Shown one piece after another: positions 33,279 to 64,000 of a stretch of DNA of 64,000 nt. The notes beneath the pieces were generated by a model. The model was not told where the DNA came from. It searched no databases and saw only the letters and a program-made list of their open reading frames with translations. Within the stretch, counting starts at the first letter, position 1, and every line of letters begins with the position of its first letter. The position numbers and the translations under genes were made by a program. Source of the DNA: Dictyostelium discoideum (taxonomy: Eukaryota); NCBI GenBank assembly GCA_000004695.1, contig CM000150.2, positions 1,536,001 to 1,600,000 on the forward strand. The letters run 5' to 3'.

Positions 33279-34869
33279 TTAATGAGAAGTAACTTTTGAA
33301 TATCTTTTAGTGGTAGCAGACGAATAACTATCCTGAGAACGAACTTTAGCTGGTGGTCTACCATCGATTGGGACATAGTTTCTAAACCATTCACCTTTGT
33401 AAACTTGACGTGGACGATAGATTTTAGTTTCTGGATCTTCTAAATGTTCTACCCAATGAGCTAACCAACCAACGGCACGTGGAATAGTGAATAAAACTGG
33501 GAACATATCAGTTGGGAAACCCATTGCTTTATAGATGAGACCAGAGTAGAAATCAACATTTGGATAAAGTTTTCTGCTTACAAAGTATTCATCTTCCAAG
33601 GCTTGTTTCTCCAACTCAGTGGCTACTTCAATCAATGGTTCTTTACCTAAACTTTCGAAAACTTCATAAGCTACTCTACGAATGATCTTGGCTCTTGGAT
33701 CATAGTTTTTGTAGATTCTATGACCGAAACCCATTAATTTCTTCTTTTTGCTCTTTACATCTGAAATGAATTGTGGAATATTCTCTTTGGAACCGATATG
33801 AATTAACATATCCAATACGGCCTCATTGGCACCACCATGAGATGGACCATATAATGCACCAGCGGCACCAGCAACACTTGTGTATGGATCGGTACCTGAT
33901 GATGAAATATGTCTCATTGCAGCGGTTGAACAATTTAATTCATGATCTGCATGAAGAATGAATAAAATTTCCAATGCACGACATAAAACTGGATTTGGTT
34001 TATAGTCTGGTTCTGATAATTTATCCAACATATACAAGAAATTCTCTGTATAACCTAAATGATTCACTGGTGTATTATATGGACGACCAATACGATGTCT
34101 CCATGCACATGCTGCAATTGTTGGTAATTTACCAACAATTCTATAAATTTGTTTATTTCTAACATTTTCACTTTTAAAAATATCTCCACCCTTTAAAAAA
34201 AAAAAAAAACAATAATAATAATAATAAATTAATAATTAGAATCTTTTAAATAAAATAATTATTTTTCTTTTTAATTTTGTATTAATACATACAGCTAAAG
34301 CAGGATTTGCTTCTGGATAAAAAGTACCTAAAGCTGCAACAGTACTAATTAACATACCCATTGGATGAGCATCATATCTAAATGTTTTCATAAGACCAAC
34401 CAAATTTTCATGAAGAAAAGTATGAGTCATAATTTTATTACTCCAACCATCTAATTGTGATTTATTTGGTAAGTTACCATTGATTAAAAGATAAGCAACC
34501 TCTAAAAAGTTTGATCTTTCTGCTAATTCTTCAATTGGATAACCTCTGTATCTTAAAATTCCTTTATCACCATCAATATATGTAATGTATGATGTTACAA
34601 CTGCTGTATTTTGGAAACCTGGATCATAAATCCTTTAAAAAAAAAAATAAATAAAAAAAAATAAAAAATAAAAAATAAAATAATTAGTAACTTGAATCTA
34701 AAGTAATATTTGAAAAAGAGAAAAAAAAAAAAAAACTTACATTAAACCACCATCACCTTTGGCTAATTGTAATTCTTTAAAGTTTAAAGCATTAATAGTG
34801 TCATTTTTAATTTTGAAATCATAGCTTTTACCATTTCTATTATCTGTAACTGTAACTGTCTCTTTTCTT

Positions 34870-55384: not shown

Positions 55385-57342
55385 TTAATAACCAATTGAA
55401 AAACCTGAAATTATATGAGCTTGTTTTAAACCACCAGTTGAAGCAGTCATACCAATGAAACAAGATTTATTTTCATGTAAATTTAATAATTTTTGGATAT
55501 TTGCTTTTATTTTATATAAAACTTGATATTTATCTAACCAAACATCAATTGTACTATCACCATCATCACCATTTGAAGTTGAATATTTAATAAAACATTC
55601 ATGTTCAATACCATCATTCATTGGTTTATTATTTTTTGGATTACCATAACCTAAAGAGAATCTATGATGAGAAGAATTTGGTTCTAATGATCTAGTATGA
55701 ATTGAAATATGATTACCATCTGGGTCTTTACAATGATCTTTTGTTGGATAAGTATCAAATTCTATTGCAATTGAATTTCTAATACCTTGATAACCTAAAC
55801 CACAACCACCAATACCAAGTGAATTGATTGAATCATTTTGAATTACAAATGCCATACCATCAGCACCATTAGTTTTAATTAAAAATTTAAATTTACAAAT
55901 GAAACCACCATTTGAAATGATATCAATTCTTTCCTTTATCCAAAATCCACCAACTCTATCATTTTCATCAGGTGTTAAACAAATACCATTCTTTGTAATA
56001 TCACAATTACCAACCAATTTCAATGATTCTCTTGCTTTTGAAATTGAATCTAAAGAATAAATTGGTTTTAAAATTATTGGTATTTCACTTTGTTGTTGTT
56101 GTTGTTGTTGCTGTTGTTGATTATTATTACCAGATTCACCTCTATTATTTCTCCATTCTGATGAACCAGAAATTCTACCAGTTAAATCACTACTATAAGT
56201 TCTTTGATGATAGGATTGTTTTTCATTATCTTCTAAGAATTCTCTATTTAAAATTGAACGTAATTCATCAAATGGTAATGTTGAACGAATTTGATGATTT
56301 AAATGATTTAAATAATTGGTTAGATCAGATTCACTAATTAAATATCGATTGAGATGAGGTAACTTTATTGAGTATCTAGAGGTGACATCGTAGATACCAT
56401 TGAATTCGAATGCAAATACGTAGGACAATTGTTTACCCCAACCACCTTCATAAGTTAGTGGACTGTCATAGGTTGCTTCACAACTATCGACATGTATCCA
56501 TCGACCATCAATGTAAACTTCATTCCAAACATGGTCGGTGAAATCCAAGATGTATCTAGTTGTAAAACCCAATGCAATAGAAAACAGAGTGAATGCATTC
56601 GCCCATTCACCACATCTTCCACATTTAGTTGATAGTAGTTTCTCGACAGAGTTGTATCTTGGGAATCTTGTTACGTGATTACTTGCACATCGGTATACCT
56701 CAACTATTGATACTTGATGTGACTGTTCTTCAAATGTTGGTCTATCACTACCAACTGAACTAGTCGATGGTGTACCACATTTAATATCTGAACATTCAGG
56801 TGAATTTGTCCATGTGAAATATTCATTCTTAAACCAATCCAATAACATTAACATCTTTCTCTTTAAATCTTTCTCTTTCTTTATCTCCAACGGTACTTGA
56901 TCTAATGCCATCTGTTGTAATCTATCAGAGTTATAGCTAATCATATTTCTATACATTCCTTCAATTTTATTCTTTAATCCATTTTCAATTTTAATTGGTA
57001 ATTTAAATGATTTTAAATTTGATAATAAAATTTTTTGATTCTAAATTTTTTTTTTTTTTTTTTTTTTTTATATTATTAGAGAAATTTGATATATTATACA
57101 ATAATATATAAAGTTTTATTATTATTTTTATTTTTATTTACATTTAAAACAATAATTTTTTCAGTTGGCGAAGGATCTCTTAATTTTGAATTTGATAAAT
57201 AATAAAATCTTTGAAATGTTGGATCAACATCTGTAACTGAAAAAACTAATATTTGAAAATCTTCATATGTGCATTCATTTTCAACTTCTACTAAATATTC
57301 TTTATCATTATATATTAAATTTATAGTTTTAGATTGATTCAT
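55385..57342 (-). CDS. Peptide:N-glycanase (PNGase/NGLY1-like, transglutaminase-fold) with an N-terminal ubiquitin-like exon and a C-terminal legume (L-type) lectin-like domain; 2 exons (57342..57142, 57040..55385; ~618 aa)
   Basis: Core: KCGRCGEWANAFTLFSIALGFTTRYILDFTDHVWNEVYIDGRWIHVDSCEA, the PNGase Cys-His-Asp catalytic-triad region. ORF 57342..57094 (MNQSKTINLIYNDKEYLVEVENECTYEDFQILVFSVTDVDPTFQRFYY...) ends at a GTAAAT donor after VLN (57142). The acceptor aaaatttag (AG 57042/57041) joins phase 0 to NQKILLSNLKSFKLPIKIENGLKNKIEGMYRNM..., in frame with the 523-aa ORF. C-terminal ~230 aa: GFWIKERIDIISNGGFICKFKFLIKTNGADGMAFVIQND...GGCGLGY...AIEFDTY...IDVWLDKYQ...CFIGMTASTGGLKQAHIISGFSIGY, which looks like a concanavalin/L-type lectin fold. 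Confidence 0.75.
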
Positions 57343-57659
57343 TCTTGAAAAAAAAAAAAAAATTAAATATATTAAAATTTTTTTTTTTTAATATAACACT
57401 ATAAAAACTCAAAAAAAAAAAAATTAAAAAAAAAAAAAAAAAAATTAAATTAAATTGAATTAAATTAATTTTATCTGGACTTATTATTTAGGTATGATTA
57501 TCTCATATTCAAATAAAAATAAAAATAAAAATAAAAATAAAAATCATATTTGGTAAAGATAGATTATTTATTGACACAAAATAATGTAATATCACACAGT
57601 CAGTAGGTAGGGGTGTGGGGAATATTCAATTATAATAATAATAATAATAATATAATGTT

Positions 57660-58019
57660 TTAATTACAACCACATGAACCAGAATAATAACCATAGCTAT
57701 AACTATAACTGTAAGTTGATCCTGATGCAGTTGTATATGAACCTGCATTAGAATCAATGTTAGTATAATCAGAAGGTAATCTTTTTCTACCATTACCACC
57801 ATTACTACCACATGAACCACATGCAATTGAATTAGAACCCATTGATAAACTTGATCCACCACCATTTGCAACACTTGATTTGCTTGATTTCATTGGGTTT
57901 GAAATTGAAATTAATGATGCTAAAAACAATTTATAATAATTGTTAAAATTAGTTTTTTTTTTTTTTTTTTTTTTTTTTTATTTTAAATATGTATTTTAAA
58001 ATTTACATAAAATGCTCAT
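57660..58019 (-). CDS. hssA/2C/7E-family-like small Gly/Ser/Cys/Tyr-rich protein, array copy A (exons 58019..58007 and 57919..57660; ~90 aa)
   Basis: 13-nt first exon ATGAGCATTTTAT (MSIL plus one base), GTAAAT donor, acceptor ttgtttttag. Exon 2 encodes [39 protein letters not shown]...[17 protein letters not shown]-stop. Confidence 0.6.
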
Positions 58020-58681
58020 TTTTGGAAATTTAATTGATTGTTTTTAAAATTTGATTTAGAATATAGGATATAATTTTATTTTATTTTTTTTATTTTATAG
58101 TTTTATTTTTTTTTTTAATTTTTTACATTTTTTTTTTTTTTTTTTTTTTTTTTTTGATTTTATTTAAAATAATTTTATTTTTATTATTTATCTGTACATA
58201 TCAAACAACAATAAAAATTGCATATCTATAACCAAAAATATCATATGATTTTTTAAAAATTATTTAAAAAATATTTAAAAAAACAGATTGTTCAAATTAA
58301 TTTTTTAATAAAAAAAATATATTTATAAATGTGGTTATTCAATCCCTATAATATTATTCAGATTTTTCTAAATTTAGGAAGTTAAAATAAATTTGTAAAC
58401 TAAGTTTTTCAATTTTCCATACAAATAATAATAATTTTATTTAAAATTTTCTTAAAAATAAAAAAAAAACTAATTTTATATATGTATCATTTTTTTTTTT
58501 TTTTTTTTTTATTTTTAAGAAAATTAATTTAGAAATTAATAAAAATAATAATAATAAAAATACATTTTAATTTCTATATTTTCACAATTTCTTTATCCCA
58601 ATTTAATAAAAATTGAAAAAAAAAAATTACAATGAGGTGTGAATAAAAATTAATTTATTTATCTTTGTATTTTTGTTTTTT

Positions 58682-58934
58682 TTAAAAATTATAACCACAT
58701 GAACTATATCCGTAACTATAACTATAACTATACCCATATCCAGTTGGTGAATATGCACGAGTATTTGATGATTTAGGTGAAGTATAAGAAATTGTTTTTA
58801 TATGACTACTTGCAATTGTAATACCTTCCATTGAAACTGCTGAATAATAATTATTATTTGATGATACAGTACTATTTTTTGATGGAGAAGAAATTGATAT
58901 TGAAATTAATGATGCTATTAAATTTTATATAAAA

Positions 58935-58970
<36 letters not shown>

Positions 58971-58995
58971 GTATATCACAAAAAATTATAAAAAT
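58682..58995 (-). CDS. hssA/2C/7E-family-like protein, divergent array copy B (exons ~58995..58983 and 58914..58682)
   Basis: First exon ATGAGTATATTAT with a GTAATA donor; acceptor aatttaatag. Exon 2 is [76 protein letters not shown]-stop. It lacks the CGSCGG block and ends CGYNF, so it may be decaying. First-exon coordinates are approximate. Confidence 0.4.
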
Positions 58996-59072
58996 ACTAA
59001 TTAATATTACATAATATACTCATTTTGGTGTTATTTTTTTAATTTTAATTTTAATTTTTAAAATTTTTTTTT

Positions 59073-59106
<34 letters not shown>

Positions 59107-59347
59107 TGTATAAAAATAAAAAAAATAATTTTAAATTATAAATTTAAAATTTTTTTTTTTTATTTCAATCCTTATCTGGTTAAATAAAAAATTTTTACAA
59201 ATGATTGATTTATAATAATATTAAAAAAAAGATTTTTTTTTTTTTTTTTTTTTTTCTTTTTTTTTTTTTGGGTTATTTCAGATTAATTTTGAAAAGACAA
59301 TAACGTACATGTTTTAATTTTACAAAAAAGTTTATGAACTTTTTCAA

Positions 59348-59378
<31 letters not shown>

Positions 59379-59914
59379 ATGAATAGTAGAAAAAAAATAT
59401 TTAATTAATAGGAAATAGTCAGATTTTTTTTTTGTTTATTTACCATATAAAGAGTAATAACACTAGATTTTAAAATAATAAACTCTTTGTATAAACATAA
59501 AAAAATGAAATTGAATGAAAGGGAATTTCCACCTTGGTTAACACAAGATTTTTAAATAATTGAATTTTTTATTTTCAATTTGAAATTGAATAAATTTTAC
59601 CAATTGAAACCTTTCTATAAAATTTTAGTGTTATTATATTTTAGTTATCAAATAAAAAAAATTATAAAATAACCTTTAATTTTGATAATAAAAAAAAAAA
59701 TTAAAACAATTCTAAAATAATAATAATTATTATAGTAATTATTTTTTCATTTTTAAAATAAAATTTTTAAAAATGATAATAAATGATATAAAAAATAAGT
59801 AGACAAAATTTTAATTTTTAGGGGTAGGGGGGAATGATGAATAAATTTTATTTTATTTATTTTACAATATATTATTACAACAAATGTAATGTAATTGTTA
59901 TAGAAACAATTGTT

Positions 59915-60170
59915 TTAATTACAGCCACATGATGATGATGAAAAGGATGAACCGTAACTATATGTGTAACCATATTGATAAGTTGGTGAAGTGTAGGTGT
60001 AATAGGTTGTTTGAGAACCATCAGAATTATTAATTATACCAGATGATGAATTACCACCACCACATGAACCACATGCTACTGAATTGGCACCCATTGATAA
60101 TTTACTACCACCATTTGCAACATTTGAATTGCTTGATTTCATTGGGTTTGAAATTGATGTTAATGCAGCT

Positions 60171-60231
<61 letters not shown>

Positions 60232-60310
60232 TTTTAAAAATTTAAATATTAATTTATAAATGTTTTTTTATTAAATTTTAAAAAAATTATTTCTTACATA
60301 AGATACTCAT
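59915..60310 (-). CDS. hssA/2C/7E-family-like protein, array copy C (exons 60310..60298 and 60168..59915)
   Basis: First exon ATGAGTATCTTAT, GTAAGA donor, acceptor ttttttaattag. Exon 2: [84 protein letters not shown]-stop. Confidence 0.6.
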
Positions 60311-60374
60311 TTTTAGTTTTTGTTTTAAATAATATTTTGATTTAATGGCTTTATGGTTTTTTTTTTTTCTTTTA

Positions 60375-60406
<32 letters not shown>

Positions 60407-60760
60407 GGAATTTTAGTTATATTTATTTTTTTTATGACAAATAGATTCATTCTTTTTAAAATCTTTAAAACCTTTCATAAACAATACATTATATAATATA
60501 AATCTTTTATTTTTTTAAGATTTAACGATTTTATAAAAATAGTAGATTTTAAAAATAAAAAAAAATTCAATAAATTAAAATGAAAAATTTTGAAATAGAT
60601 CATAGGTTCCAAAGGTGAGAAAAAAGTTAAATAATAATTTTAAATCAAAGAAAAAAAAAATTATAATTTTAACTGGGTATAAGTGAATTAAATTAATTTA
60701 TTAATTTTACAATTTATTTTTACAAAAAATGTATTGCAGTAGTTATTGAAAAACACTTAT

Positions 60761-61122
60761 TTAATGACAACCACATGATGATGAACCTGATGAACTATAG
60801 CTATAACTATAATTGTATGTGTAAACTGGTGAAGTGTAAGAGTAATAAGTTGTTTGAGAACCATCAGCATTATTAATTGTACCAGATGATGAGTTACCTC
60901 CACCACATGAACCACATGCGACTGAATTGGTACCCATTGATAATCTACCACCACCATTTGCAACACTTGATTTAGTTGATTTCATTGGGTTTGAAATTGA
61001 AGTTAATGCAGCTAAGTTAAATGAAAAAAAAAAAAAAAAAAAAAAGTTTTAAAAATTAATATATCAATTTATAAATGTTTTTATTATATATAAAAAAATG
61101 AATTCTTACATAATATGCTCAT
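60761..61122 (-). CDS. hssA/2C/7E-family-like protein, array copy D (exons 61122..61110 and 61011..60761)
   Basis: First exon ATGAGCATATTAT, GTAAGA donor, acceptor aacttag. Exon 2: [83 protein letters not shown]-stop. Confidence 0.6.
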
Positions 61123-61181
61123 TTTGTTTTTAAATAATATTTTGATTTAATGGTTTTATAATTTTTTTTTTTTTTCTTTTA

Positions 61182-61221
<40 letters not shown>

Positions 61222-61569
61222 GCATTTTGGTTATAATCATTTTTTAATATTTTTCTAAAATAAATTGATTCATCATTTTTAAAATCTAAAAACTTTTTAT
61301 ACAAAACATAATAATATATAAAATCTTTTATTTTTAATAGATTAAACGATTATATAAAAATAGTTGTTTTTAAAAAAAAAAATTCTATAACTCTATAATG
61401 AAAATTTTCAAAAGTAAAAAAAAAAAAGTTAAATAATAATTTTAAAATCAAATAAATAAATTAATAATTAAAAAAAAATAATAATTAGAGGGGAAAAGTG
61501 AATTAATTTAATTTATTAATTTTACAAATTATTTTTACAAAAAAATGTAATGTAGTAGTTAACAATTTT

Positions 61570-61918
61570 TTAATGACATCCACATGATGATGAACCAGAT
61601 GAACTATAGCTATAACTATAATTGTATGTGTAAACTGGTGAAGTGTAAGAGTAATAAGTTGTTTGAGAACCATCAGCATTATTAATTGTACCAGATGATG
61701 AGTTACCACCTCCACATGAACCACATGCGACTGAATTTGAACCCATTGATAATCTACCACCACCATTTGCAACACTTGATTTAGTTGATTTCATTGGGTT
61801 TGAAATTGAAGTTAATGCAGCTAAATTAAATAAAAAAAGAAAAAATAAAGTTTTAATATTATTTTATAAATATTTTCATATAAAATATAAAAAATGAATT
61901 CTTACATAAGATACTCAT
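61570..61918 (-). CDS. hssA/2C/7E-family-like protein, array copy E (exons 61918..61906 and 61820..61570)
   Basis: First exon ATGAGTATCTTAT, GTAAGA donor, acceptor aatttag. The exon 2 protein differs from copy D at one residue (MGS for MGT). Confidence 0.6.
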
Positions 61919-62304
61919 TTTATTTTAGTTTTTGTTTTTAAAAAATATTTTGATTTAATGGTTTTATTGTTTTTTTTTTTTTTCTTTTATACTTTTTTTT
62001 TTTTTATTTTTTTTATTTTTTATTTATTTTTGTTAATACATTTTTAAATTTAGTTAAAATTATTTTTTTGGTTTTTAATAAGATAAATAGATTCATCCTT
62101 TTTAAAATCTATAATAACTTTTCATAAACACAATACATTATAAAAATCTTTTATTTTTAAAAGATTAAACGATTTTATTTAAATAGTGGTTTTTAAAAAA
62201 AAAAAAAAAAAATTCAAAAATAATAATGAAAAATTTAAAAAATAGATCATAGGTTTCAATAAGGTAAAAATATACCTAAAATAATAATTTTAAAATCAAT
62301 CAAA

Positions 62305-62377
<73 letters not shown>

Positions 62378-62475
62378 ATAATTAGGGGGTAAAAGTGAAT
62401 TAATTTAATTTATTAATTTTACAATTTATTATTACAACAAATGTAATGTAGTAGTTATTGAAAGACAACTGTTTT

Positions 62476-62890
62476 TTAATGACAACCACATGATGAAGAT
62501 GAACCTGATGAACTATAGCTATAACTATAATTGTATGTGTAAATTGGAGAAGTGTAAGTGTAATAAGTTGTTTTGGAACCATCAGCATTATTAATTGTAC
62601 CAGATGATGAACTTCCACCACCACATGAACCACATGCGACTGAATTTGAACCCATTGATAATCTACCACCGCCATTTGCAACACTTGATTTGCTTGATTT
62701 CATTGGGTTTGAAATTGAAGTTAATGCAGCTAATTAAAAAATAAAAAATAAAAAATAAAAATATAAATTTTTTAAAAATTAATATTAAAATTCTAATTGT
62801 TTTTTTATTTTTATAATATTTTTTTATTTTTTTTTTAATTTCTTTTATTAAATATAAAAAAGGAAATGAATTCTTACATAAGATACTCAT
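62476..62890 (-). CDS. hssA/2C/7E-family-like protein, array copy F (exons 62890..62878 and 62729..62476)
   Basis: First exon ATGAGTATCTTAT, GTAAGA donor, acceptor ttttttaattag. Exon 2 ends ...[17 protein letters not shown]-stop. Confidence 0.6.
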
Positions 62891-63583
62891 TTTGTTTGAT
62901 TTTATATTAAATAATGTTTTGATTTGAATAATAAAAAAAAAAAAAAATTTATTTATACTTTTTTTTTTTAAAATGCACATTTATTTAAAAATAAAAATTT
63001 AATTATAAATAATTTTAAAAAATAAATTATAACTTATATTTTCTTTAAATATTTTCATCCACATCTATAATATCTAAAAGGCGCGGTTTTTGAATTAAAA
63101 AAAAAGCAATCTAGATTAATTAATATAAAAAAAAAAAAAAAACCCAAGATATATAAAAAAAAAAAAATAAAAAATAAACCCAAAGACATATAAAAAAAAA
63201 ACCAAAGATAGATAAAAAAAAAAAATCGATTTCTTTTTTAGATGACACTCATATTAAAATTAAAAGTTTTAAAAAAAAATTATAATTTTTCATTATAATT
63301 TATTGTTTTCAATCACAAGTAAAAAAAACCAATATCTTAATTTTTTTAATAGATAAAAATTTTTTAAAAAAAAAATTAAAAAAAAAAAATTTTTTAATAA
63401 AAAAAAAAAAAAAAATTTATTTTTTTATTGTTATGTATTTATATATTTTATTTTATTTTTATATTTGTATATATTTTATTTATTTTATTTATTTTTTTTT
63501 TAAAAAAAAAAAATAATATATCATTATTTTTTTATTTTTTTTTATTTTTTTTTTTTTTCACTTTTTTTTTCTATTCACTCAAA

Positions 63584-64000
63584 TTAGATTTTATCACCCA
63601 AAATAAAAATAATTAAAACTAAAAAACCAAAAATTGCAAAAAAGTTTGGAATATTACTTGTTGAATTATTTTTTTGAGGTTCATTTGTTTTTGGAGGTTT
63701 TGTAGTTTGATTTGGTTCATTTGAATTTAACGATGATGAAGATAAGGATGATGAAGATGTTGTATTTGGGGAAGGTGATGGATTTGAAGAATTTGATGGT
63801 GATGGAGTTTCTTTAAAGATACATTTAACAGAATATGGACCAACTAAAGCAGCATTATCAATTGAACAATTGAATAAATTAATTGTATAATTATTTGTTA
63901 AACATTGTTTATCATCAGTTTCAATATATGATGTAAAATTATAATTATTAACATTATCTTTTGAAGAAGTAATTTTAAAAGAATTTGAACAACCATTATT
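63584..64000 (-). CDS. Partial (3' end only) gene for a small Cys-containing, Ser/Pro/Thr-rich protein with a hydrophobic C-terminus, probably GPI-anchored (ponticulin/PsA-like surface protein); continues beyond the window
   Basis: The minus-strand frame is open from the window edge to TAA at 63586..63584. The C-terminus is ...SSSSLNSNEPNQTTKPPKTNEPQKNNSTSNIPNFFAIFGFLVLIIFILGDKI: a small-residue omega region, a spacer, then a hydrophobic tail, which fits a GPI attachment signal. Upstream are four Cys residues in a compact domain with N-glycosylation sequons. Confidence 0.45.
   Translation of the reverse strand, partial: NNGCSNSFKITSSKDNVNNYNFTSYIETDDKQCLTNNYTINLFNCSIDNAALVGPYSVKCIFKETPSPSNSSNPSPSPNTTSSSSLSSSSLNSNEPNQTTKPPKTNEPQKNNSTSNIPNFFAIFGFLVLIIFILGDKI

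What the first reader, a model, noticed from the sequence alone, without database searches (positions are those of the whole stretch)
57660..62890. Six-copy head-to-tail array of small Gly/Ser/Cys/Tyr-rich genes, each with a conserved 13-nt first exon (MSIL)
Six minus-strand units spaced ~0.8-1.0 kb apart each encode a ~90-aa protein. The protein has a conserved [11 protein letters not shown]...VANGGG...[13 protein letters not shown]...(Y/S/T)n...CGC(H/N) layout, reminiscent of the Dictyostelium hssA/2C/7E small-protein family. Every copy has the same micro-exon structure: a 13-nt first exon ATGAG(C/T)AT(A/C/T)TTAT ending in phase 1, a GTAAGA/GTAAAT donor, a ~80-140-bp A/T intron, then the acceptor. 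Downstream flank blocks (ttcttacataagatactcatttt..., gattttaaaaa...ctt...ataaaca) are also conserved, so the whole unit is duplicated, not just the CDS. Copies D and E differ by a single residue (very recent duplication or gene conversion). Copy B has lost the CGSCGG block and ends CGYNF, so it may be decaying. ORF finders miss these genes: the 13-nt exon is invisible, and the 6-frame track instead reports His-rich alternative frames over the same DNA.
Basis: partly seen in the sequence, partly recalled or inferred. Interest (0 to 1): 0.6.

Follow-up and report, generated by a model that had tools for sequence, protein, structure and literature searches.

The report
Known Dictyostelium hssA-family gene array
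This is a real tandem row of six small Gly/Ser/Cys/Tyr-rich genes with a 13-base first exon. They are the already annotated hssl4–hssl9 genes of Dictyostelium discoideum chromosome 1, and their odd gene structure was published in 2008, so the finding is correct but ordinary.

Summary
Six minus-strand genes (ATGs at 62890, 61918, 61122, 60310, 59023, 58019) each have a 13-nt first-exon ORF, one phase-1 A/T intron (85–148 nt) and a second exon, giving 81–90-aa proteins. Five of the six spliced proteins, including the MSIL start, are exact matches to annotated D. discoideum AX4 proteins HssA/B-like 4, 5, 7, 8 and 9. Five of the six also appear in the 96-gene sigN/hssA table of Vicente et al. 2008, which states that 89 of 96 family genes have this 13-nt exon. 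Five copies hit Pfam PF05710 end to end.

Corrections:
- Spacing is 0.8–1.29 kb.
- Whole-unit duplication holds only for the four upstream copies.
- One "downstream flank block" is the micro-exon itself read on the plus strand.
- The one-residue pair is not a very recent duplicate. Silent sites, intron and spacers have diverged 12–20%, and the ratio of protein-changing to silent substitution rates (dN/dS) is 0.04, which indicates purifying selection on the protein.
- The divergent copy hssl5 has one Cys, no Pfam hit, no detected orthologue and about 0 TPM, so it is plausibly decaying.

The biochemical function of the family remains unknown.

The parts
62476..62890 (-). Unit 1 = hssl9 (HssA/B-like protein 9, Q55FC2, XP_647611.2; sigN127 in Vicente 2008). 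Exon 1 is 62878-62890, the intron is 62730-62877 (148 nt, donor GTAAGA) and exon 2 including the stop is 62476-62729. The protein is 88 aa.
   Evidence: The protein is an exact match, and Pfam PF05710 scores E = 2e-19. An older 118-aa model started at the upstream ATG at 62980 (P0005; table row).
61570..61918 (-). Unit 2 = hssl8 (Q55FC3; sigN131). Exon 1 is 61906-61918, the intron is 61821-61905 (85 nt) and exon 2 is 61570-61820. The protein is 87 aa.
   Evidence: PF05710 scores E = 1e-18. The table row on chromosome 1 with 87 aa and intron '84' is.
60761..61122 (-). Unit 3 = hssl7 (Q55FC4; sigN135). Exon 1 is 61110-61122, the intron is 61012-61109 (98 nt) and exon 2 is 60761-61011. The protein is 87 aa and differs from unit 2 by one residue.
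   Evidence: PF05710 scores E = 4e-18. Against unit 2 there are 7 synonymous and 1 non-synonymous differences.
59915..60310 (-). Unit 4 = presumably hssl6 (sigN136). Exon 1 is 60298-60310, the intron is 60169-60297 (129 nt, with a T run of about 50) and exon 2 is 59915-60168. The protein is 88 aa.
   Evidence: PF05710 scores E = 6e-18. It matches the table row on chromosome 1 with 88 aa and intron '128'. The exact protein is not in the protein collection.
58682..59023 (-). Unit 5 = hssl5 (DDB_G0268454, Q55FC6), the divergent copy. Exon 1 is 59011-59023, the intron is 58915-59010 (96 nt, donor GTAATA) and exon 2 is 58682-58914. The protein is 81 aa, has one Cys and ends CGYNF.
   Evidence: It has no Pfam hit and no relative other than itself. 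Expression is about 0 TPM in cup, stalk, spore and vegetative cells.
57660..58019 (-). Unit 6 = hssl4 (Q55FC7; sigN157). Exon 1 is 58007-58019, the intron is 57920-58006 (87 nt, donor GTAAAT) and exon 2 is 57660-57919. The protein is 90 aa.
   Evidence: PF05710 scores E = 6e-19. It has an orthologue in D. dimigraforme, P0010.
60311..62475 (-). Three homologous intergenic spacers (61919-62475, 61123-61569, 60311-60760). They show that units 1-4 are duplicates of a complete unit of about 0.8-1.0 kb. The shared material is a 3' flank block, a central block (…ATCGTTTAATCT…TAAAAATAAAAGATTT… and TAGATTTTAAAAA-GATGAATCTATTTAT), an A run and a promoter-proximal block.
   Evidence: The alignment is. 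Pairwise mismatch is p = 0.15-0.17, against 0.43 for unrelated A/T-rich controls.
60369..62961 (-). TATA-like boxes AAAGTATAAA(AG/TA) at 62950-62961, 61984-61995, 61176-61187 and 60369-60380, 54-74 nt upstream of the ATGs of units 1-4. A role as core promoter is inferred, not shown.
   Evidence: One search finds four matches in the window, all at equivalent positions in units 1-4. Chance expectation is 0.84, and 3 of 100 shuffles reach 4.

Best explanation
The region is the hssl4-hssl9 cluster of Dictyostelium discoideum AX4 chromosome 1. It is a head-to-tail array of six members of the hssA/2C/7E (sigN, Pfam PF05710) family of small Ser/Gly/Cys/Tyr-rich proteins.

Each gene has a 13-nt coding first exon (M-S-I-L plus the first base of a Ser codon), one short A/T-rich phase-1 intron and a second exon. 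This structure is inherited from the family ancestor and is shared by about 90 paralogues.

The four upstream copies (hssl9, 8, 7, 6) arose by tandem duplication of a complete unit of about 0.8-1.0 kb, comprising promoter, gene and 3' flank. They have since diverged about 12-35% at silent sites while the protein stayed under purifying selection. hssl4 and hssl5 are older, more diverged members, and hssl5 has lost the Cys motifs and is probably decaying.

Shown here or in the cited papers: the gene models, family membership, duplication history and protein-level constraint.

Inferred from work on other family members: the products are developmentally regulated, prestalk/stalk-lineage small low-complexity proteins. 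They probably act redundantly outside the cell or in vesicles, in matrix or cell adhesion, possibly cross-linked through their Cys and Tyr residues.
For: - Exact protein identity to annotated AX4 proteins on a 4,923,596-bp contig.
- PF05710 matches over the full profile for five copies.
- Vicente et al. 2008 (PMC2257962) report 96 genes, 89 with the 13-nt exon-1 ORF, and sigN1 cDNA confirms the splice. Their supplementary table has chromosome-1 rows matching units 1, 2, 3, 4 and 6 in protein length and intron length.
- Kin et al. 2018 (PMC6198379) restate the 13-bp first exon.
- The micro-exon varies only at third-codon positions, nt 6 and nt 9.
- dN/dS is 0.04 to 0.36 among units 1-4.
- Orthologues in D. 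citrinum, D. firmibasis and D. dimigraforme start MSILSAL.
- The spacers of units 1-4 are homologous throughout.
- Two hssA/2C/7E-family genes whose gene IDs are adjacent to hssl5's are stalk-enriched at 7-32 TPM.
- The functional inference comes from Vicente 2008: prestalk expression, vesicle staining, an antibody that disaggregates mounds, and a composition like that of small urea-insoluble matrix proteins.
Against: - No spliced-read or cDNA evidence for these six particular genes was examined here. The splice is supported by homology, annotation and sequence constraint only.
- Secretion is unproven. The N-terminal hydrophobic stretch is short and marginal (best 9-residue Kyte-Doolittle hydropathy average 1.7-2.0, no basic n-region). 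Vicente et al. found no staining at the membrane or in the matrix.
- Deleting 13 sigN genes gave no phenotype.
- For hssA itself a frame-shifted construct still suppressed a statA mutant, which points to an RNA-level effect.
- The AlphaFold2 model is low-confidence (pLDDT 48), so nothing can be said about the fold.
- I could not resolve which of the six genes correspond to the expressed IDs DDB_G0268456 and DDB_G0268458.
Confidence: 0.95

Rival explanations
1. The genes act mainly as RNAs. The transcripts, not the small proteins, carry the function, as reported for hssA, where a frame-shifted copy still suppressed a partially active statA mutant. Under this reading the ORF and micro-exon are conserved only by descent.
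For: Kin et al. [quoted passage not shown] Deleting 13 sigN genes gave no phenotype, and the proteins were hard to detect on Western blots.
Against: Among units 1-4, substitutions are strongly biased to synonymous sites: u2 versus u3 has 7 synonymous and 1 non-synonymous difference (dN/dS 0.04), and u1 versus u2 has dN/dS 0.14. The micro-exon varies only at third-codon positions. Protein motifs are conserved across species. This pattern is what selection on the translated Gly/Ser/Cys/Tyr frame would produce.
Confidence: 0.08
2. Translation starts at the internal ATG (MKSS…), and the upstream ATGAGYATHTTAT is only a conserved piece of 5' flank. The genes would then be single-exon, encoding proteins of about 75 aa.
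For: The mechanical ORF list shows 74-75-aa ORFs from the internal Met in units 1-4.
Against: - Units 5 and 6 have no equivalent ATG-initiated ORF. Unit 6 is listed from a TTG, and unit 5 only from MEGIT… at 49 aa.
- The residues SALTSISNP upstream of the internal Met are conserved at protein level across paralogues and species.
- The Pfam profile begins at residue 1.
- All six micro-exons join in frame across canonical GT…AG introns.
- cDNA evidence for sigN1 and 89 of 96 gene models show the 13-nt exon.
Confidence: 0.02
3. The near-identity of hssl7 and hssl8 reflects very recent duplication or ongoing gene conversion that homogenises the coding regions.
For: The proteins differ at one residue and the CDS is 97% identical, while global flank identity including indels is only 72-76%.
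Against: Substitution-only divergence is similar everywhere: dS 0.12 in the CDS, p = 0.13 in the intron and p = 0.17 in the spacers. The excess CDS identity is explained by the near absence of non-synonymous change, that is by purifying selection. The low global flank identity comes mostly from indels in homopolymer runs.
Confidence: 0.1

Closest known systems
sigN Group 1 and Group 2 gene clusters of D. discoideum chromosome 2 (Vicente et al. 2008, PMC2257962)
   Same: They belong to the same family and have the same gene structure: a 13-nt exon-1 ORF, one short intron and exon 2. The proteins are the same size (87-89 aa), share the Ser/Gly/Cys richness and four Cys, and the genes are likewise clustered within 7-10 kb.
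   Different: The genes here are only 20-26% identical to SigN1 in that paper's table. [quoted passage not shown] They carry a Tyr-rich (YxYxY) C-terminal half. They have not been studied individually.
hssA, hssB, 2C and 7E genes (founding members of the hssA/2C/7E family; Pfam PF05710 'Coiled')
   Same: They share the N-terminal M-[ST]-[IL]-[LF]-S-A-[IL]-T-S-I-S motif, LSMGSNSxAC-GxCGG and the C-terminal CGC[NH] (alignment with hssB, P0014). All have full-length PF05710 matches.
   Different: The central region differs. hssB and its relatives have Ile/Asp/Asn-rich or Gly-rich cores instead of the Tyr/Ser/Thr repeat. hssA has a reported RNA-level suppressor activity that has not been tested for these genes.
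Cup-cell-specific hssA-like clade (Kin et al. 2018, PMC6198379)
   Same: They belong to the same family, have the same 13-bp first exon, and are restricted to group 4 dictyostelids.
   Different: [quoted passage not shown] The hssA/2C/7E-family genes whose IDs are adjacent to hssl5's show modest, stalk-enriched expression (7-32 TPM), and hssl5 is silent.

Membership tests
hssA/2C/7E (sigN, HssA/B-like; Pfam PF05710) | Match to Pfam PF05710 above the gathering score (21.4 bits) | tested here: met
   Units 1, 2, 3, 4 and 6 score 65.9-70.5 bits and cover profile positions 1-90 of 90. Unit 5 (hssl5) has no hit at E <= 1, so this feature is not met for that one copy.
hssA/2C/7E (sigN, HssA/B-like; Pfam PF05710) | Gene structure: a first exon with a 13-nt ORF, a single short intron and a second exon (89 of 96 family genes) | tested here: met
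   All six units have a 13-nt exon, a GTAAxx…AG intron of 85-148 nt in phase 1, and an in-frame exon 2. The family rule is stated in PMC2257962 and PMC6198379.
hssA/2C/7E (sigN, HssA/B-like; Pfam PF05710) | Small protein (<120 aa) rich in Ser, Gly and Cys and poor in Lys/Arg | tested here: met
   The proteins are 81-90 aa, with Ser 27-31%, Gly 14-16% (6% in unit 5), 4 Cys (1 in unit 5) and 2-5 Lys+Arg.
hssA/2C/7E (sigN, HssA/B-like; Pfam PF05710) | Conserved motifs: N-terminal M-x-x-x-SA(L/I)TSIS, LSMGSNSxAC-GxCGG and C-terminal CGC(N/H) | tested here: met
   The alignments are, the latter including hssB and HssA/B-like 3. Five of six copies have all motifs. Unit 5 keeps only the N-terminal motif and a degenerate C-terminus, CGYNF.
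hssA/2C/7E (sigN, HssA/B-like; Pfam PF05710) | Already catalogued as family members in public annotation | tested here: met
   Exact-sequence look-up gives HssA/B-like proteins 9, 8, 7, 5 and 4 of D. discoideum AX4. Rows sigN127, 131, 135, 136 and 157 are in the 2008 table. The exact protein of unit 4 is not in the collection, and unit 5 is absent from the 2008 table.
hssA/2C/7E (sigN, HssA/B-like; Pfam PF05710) | Restriction to Dictyostelium (group 4 dictyostelids) | tested here: met
   The profile search returned only Dictyostelium spp. proteins, plus one unnamed MetaClust entry, and all carry PF05710. The search is limited by its word index and by low-complexity sequence.
hssA/2C/7E (sigN, HssA/B-like; Pfam PF05710) | Developmentally regulated expression, with prestalk, stalk or cup enrichment in the studied members | tested here: inconclusive
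   This rests only on published tables. DDB_G0268456 and DDB_G0268458, family genes whose IDs are adjacent to hssl5's, are stalk-enriched, and hssl5 is about 0 TPM. The mapping of those IDs to particular units is not resolved, and reads from 97%-identical paralogues are ambiguous.
Cysteine-knot or coiled-coil proteins (database labels attached to the family) | Six-Cys knot topology, or heptad-repeat alpha-helical coiled coil | tested here: not met
   There are only four Cys, as Vicente et al. also note. AlphaFold2 on a 13-sequence alignment gives mean pLDDT 48 and pTM 0.26, with no helices apart from one 3-residue turn and only low-confidence beta strands over the Tyr-alternating segment. The Pfam name 'Coiled' is a label, not a demonstrated structure.

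The most novel reading that the evidence does not exclude
The least ordinary reading still open concerns the Tyr-alternating, Cys-capped subgroup (hssl4 and hssl6-9). It could be a distinct functional class within the family: small secreted proteins that form beta-rich, disulfide- or dityrosine-cross-linked assemblies in the stalk tube or matrix. hssl5 would then be a snapshot of how such a copy decays or is repurposed after losing its Cys. Nothing here tests this beyond composition, a low-confidence beta prediction and modest stalk-enriched expression of family genes with adjacent IDs.
Probability: 0.1. Interest if true: 0.3.

Novelty: already known. Interest (0 to 1): 0.08.

Why it matters
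It matters little as a discovery. The genes, their family and the 13-nt first exon are in public annotation and in a 2008 paper.

It is useful as a calibration case.

It also illustrates a real annotation hazard. A prokaryote-style ORF list truncates these genes and shows longer spurious alternative frames. At least one recent automatic annotation of a related strain skips the micro-exon and fuses exon 2 to the neighbouring gene. An early AX4 model of hssl9 started at a wrong upstream ATG.

The open biological question is what about 100 redundant hssA-like small proteins do in Dictyostelium development. This locus does not advance it.

Tried and rejected
- A look-up of the encoding contig for hssl7 found nothing on record, so I could not fetch annotated neighbours or orthologous loci. 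The locus-fetching collections cover viruses, metagenomes and prokaryotes only, so micro-exon conservation in other species could be checked only through annotated protein N-termini.
- A search for papers naming hssl4-9 or the neighbouring DDB_G IDs found nothing relevant in main texts.
- tblastn of the six proteins against the rest of the window found only low-complexity noise and no seventh copy or relic. The two 2-mismatch hits to the micro-exon pattern on the plus strand, at 34365 and 48270, are not followed by a family ORF.
- Structure prediction gave an unusable model (pLDDT 48), so I ran no fold search.
- I considered a transmembrane segment, which was predicted for SigN1 in the 2008 paper. 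I rejected it for these copies because the best 19-residue Kyte-Doolittle hydropathy average is below 0.8.
- I considered whether the introns of units 5 and 6 are homologous. Their mismatch (p = 0.31) lies inside the range of unrelated A/T-rich controls (0.25-0.55), so this cannot be claimed.
- I could not establish which of the six genes are DDB_G0268456 and DDB_G0268458.

Full report
**What is there.** The window has about 20% G+C with long A/T homopolymer tracts, which fits a dictyostelid genome. The pattern ATGAGYATHTTATGTAA occurs exactly six times, all on the minus strand, at 58003-58019, 59007-59023, 60294-60310, 61106-61122, 61902-61918 and 62874-62890. At up to two mismatches the window holds 8 matches against 0.56 expected, and none of 100 shuffles reaches 8.

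In each unit the 13-nt ATG…TTAT is followed by GTAAGA (four units), GTAATA or GTAAAT. Then comes an A/T tract, and the first AG after that tract joins in frame to a Gly/Ser/Cys/Tyr-rich ORF. The six models give proteins of 88, 87, 87, 88, 81 and 90 aa and introns of 148, 85, 98, 129, 96 and 87 nt; exact coordinates are. The finding's limits, 57660 and 62890, are exactly the last stop base and the first ATG base. tblastn found no further copy elsewhere in the window. The array is bounded by unrelated genes on both sides.

**What it is.** An exact-sequence look-up shows that five of the six spliced proteins, including the micro-exon-encoded MSIL, are already in the public record as D. discoideum AX4 proteins on a 4,923,596-bp contig:

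| Unit | Protein | Accessions |
|---|---|---|
| 1 | HssA/B-like protein 9 | Q55FC2, XP_647611.2 |
| 2 | HssA/B-like protein 8 | Q55FC3 |
| 3 | HssA/B-like protein 7 | Q55FC4 |
| 5 | HssA/B-like protein 5 | Q55FC6, DDB_G0268454 |
| 6 | HssA/B-like protein 4 | Q55FC7 |

Units 1, 2, 3, 4 and 6 match Pfam PF05710 at 66-70 bits (cut-off 21.4) over profile positions 1-90 of 90, beginning at residue 1.

Vicente et al. 2008 (PMC2257962) describe this family:
[quoted passage not shown] Their Additional file 1 lists chromosome-1 rows that fit my models, with their lengths consistently one less than mine:
- sigN131: 87 aa, intron 84, matches unit 2.
- sigN135: 87 aa, intron 97, matches unit 3.
- sigN136: 88 aa, intron 128, matches unit 4.
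- sigN157: 90 aa, intron 86, matches unit 6.
- sigN127: 118 aa, exon 1 of 103 nt, intron 147. This matches an early model of unit 1 that started at the upstream ATG at 62980. That model is P0005 and was later corrected to 88 aa.

Kin et al. 2018 (PMC6198379) again mention the 13-bp first exon.

**Independent support for the micro-exon from the sequence.**
- The six micro-exons vary only at nt 6 (T/C) and nt 9 (C/A/T), and both are third-codon positions.
- The residues encoded just downstream of the splice and upstream of the internal Met (SALTSISNP) are conserved across paralogues and species.
- Units 5 and 6 have no comparable ATG-initiated single-exon ORF.
- Annotated orthologues in D. citrinum, D. 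firmibasis and D. dimigraforme begin MSILSAL.
- More distant family members, including hssB, all begin M-x-x-x-S.
- I examined no transcript reads for these six genes. That remains the one direct test not done.

**Duplication history.** The three spacers between units 1-2, 2-3 and 3-4 align along their whole length. Their substitution-only mismatch is p = 0.15-0.17, against a mean of 0.43 (minimum 0.33) for unrelated A/T-rich segments aligned the same way. They share a 3'-flank block, central blocks, an A run and an AAAGTATAAA(AG/TA) box 54-74 nt upstream of each ATG. Units 1-4 are therefore duplicates of a complete unit of about 0.8-1.0 kb.

The u4-u5 and u5-u6 spacers, and the introns of units 5 and 6, cannot be distinguished from unrelated A/T-rich DNA. 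'The whole unit is duplicated' thus holds for four of the six.

Spacing is 972, 796, 812, 1287 and 1004 nt.

**Selection versus conversion.**
- hssl8 and hssl7 differ by 7 synonymous changes and 1 non-synonymous change (dS 0.12, dN/dS 0.04).
- hssl9 versus hssl8 or hssl7 gives dN/dS 0.14-0.15.
- Pairs with unit 4 give dN/dS 0.29-0.36.
- Pairs with unit 5 give dN/dS 0.6-0.8 at near-saturated dS.
- The u2-u3 intron (p = 0.13) and the spacers (p about 0.17) have diverged about as much as the synonymous sites.

The single-residue difference therefore reflects purifying selection on the protein. It does not reflect a very recent duplication, and gene conversion is not needed to explain it. The synonymous bias also shows that the Gly/Ser/Cys/Tyr frame is the one under constraint. 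The longer His/Val-rich alternative-frame ORFs in the mechanical list are not constrained.

**The divergent copy.** Unit 5 (hssl5) keeps the micro-exon, the intron phase, the N-terminal MSILSSLISIS and a YSYSYSYGY stretch, but it has diverged in several ways:
- It has one Cys instead of four.
- It has no Pfam hit.
- It has no relative other than itself in the protein collection.
- It is absent from the 96-gene table.
- It is at about 0 TPM in cup, stalk, spore and vegetative cells in Kin et al.'s table.

However, the ORF is intact, so this is not proven.

**How it probably works.** The proteins are 67-73% Gly+Ser+Cys+Tyr+Thr+Asn. They have no transmembrane-grade hydrophobic stretch, and the hydrophobic N-terminus is only marginal. 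AlphaFold2 on a 13-sequence family alignment gives pLDDT 48 and pTM 0.26. There is therefore no support for the 'coiled coil' or 'cysteine knot' labels attached to the family.

What is known comes from other members:
- Expression is induced at about 10 h and is prestalk-specific.
- Antibodies stain vesicles.
- An anti-Group-2 antibody disaggregates mounds.
- Deleting 13 genes gives no phenotype.
- The composition resembles that of small urea-insoluble matrix proteins.
- One clade is cup-specific and very highly expressed.
- hssA has an RNA-level suppressor effect.
- The family is specific to group 4 dictyostelids.

My best inference is that these are redundant, developmentally regulated, prestalk/stalk-lineage small low-complexity proteins that act in matrix or adhesion. 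The constraint analysis argues for protein-level rather than purely RNA-level function. This functional part is inference, not something shown here.

**Confidence.** The stated confidence of 0.95 applies to the identification, gene models and duplication history. The functional inference (matrix or adhesion role) is much weaker; I would put it at about 0.4.

**Verdict.** The feature is already annotated and published. Interest is low.

Noticed in passing
window 62476-64000 (-); protein P0002 (KAM9991420.1, Dictyostelium cf. discoideum): A 258-aa 'hypothetical protein' in a recent related-strain annotation fuses two genes. It joins the upstream Cys-rich, Ser/Pro-rich gene, whose 3' end is at window 63584-64000, to exon 2 of the hssl9 orthologue (…NFFAIF|[13 protein letters not shown]…). 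The 13-nt exon is skipped, and its PF05710 match starts at profile position 2. This is an automatic-annotation artefact caused by the micro-exon.
   Followed up: partly
window 62878-62980 (-): An early model of hssl9 (118 aa; P0005/UPI00004E3008; sigN127 with a 103-nt first exon in the 2008 table) started at the upstream in-frame ATG at 62980. It read through 90 nt of A/T-rich 5' flank (MCILKKKSINKFFFFFIIQIK…). The current record (XP_647611.2, 88 aa) uses the ATG at 62890.
   Followed up: yes
window 59915-60310 (-): The spliced protein of unit 4 (presumably hssl6, sigN136) is the only one of the six whose exact sequence is absent from the 15-billion-protein collection. No hit of 90% identity or more was returned either. 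The reason is unknown; it could be a gap in the collection or a different deposited model.
   Followed up: partly
window 59815-59836 and 57600-57621 (-); weaker at about 62385, 61490 and 60675: C-rich boxes (CCCCCCTACCCCTAAAA; CCCCACACCCCTACC; weaker ACCCCCTAA, TCCCCTCTAA, ATACCCAG) sit 40-95 nt downstream of the stop codons, in otherwise roughly 14% G+C DNA. They resemble the G/C-rich GBF-type motifs that Vicente et al. describe in sigN promoters, but here they lie in 3' flanks. Only the two strongest pass a threshold of 6 C in 9 nt.
   Followed up: partly
window 62306-62380 and 60174-60226 (-): There are very long homopolymer runs: about 75 T in the u1-u2 spacer, and about 50 T that make up most of the intron of unit 4. 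Length differences in such runs account for most of the size variation between units and for the low 'global' identity of the flanks.
   Followed up: no
window 55385-57342 (-): The gene downstream of the array consists of an 82-aa ORF (57094-57342) followed by a 523-aa ORF (55385-56956) on the same strand, presumably exons of one unrelated gene. The 82-aa piece has only sub-threshold Pfam hits. I did not analyse the long ORF.
   Followed up: no
Kin et al. 2018 supplementary TPM table: DDB_G0268456 and DDB_G0268458, hssA/2C/7E-family genes whose IDs are adjacent to hssl5's DDB_G0268454, are stalk-enriched (7-32 TPM in stalk, about 0-5 elsewhere). DDB_G0268460 is listed as ponK (ponticulin-related). 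It may be the gene immediately upstream of the array, but I did not verify the mapping.
   Followed up: partly
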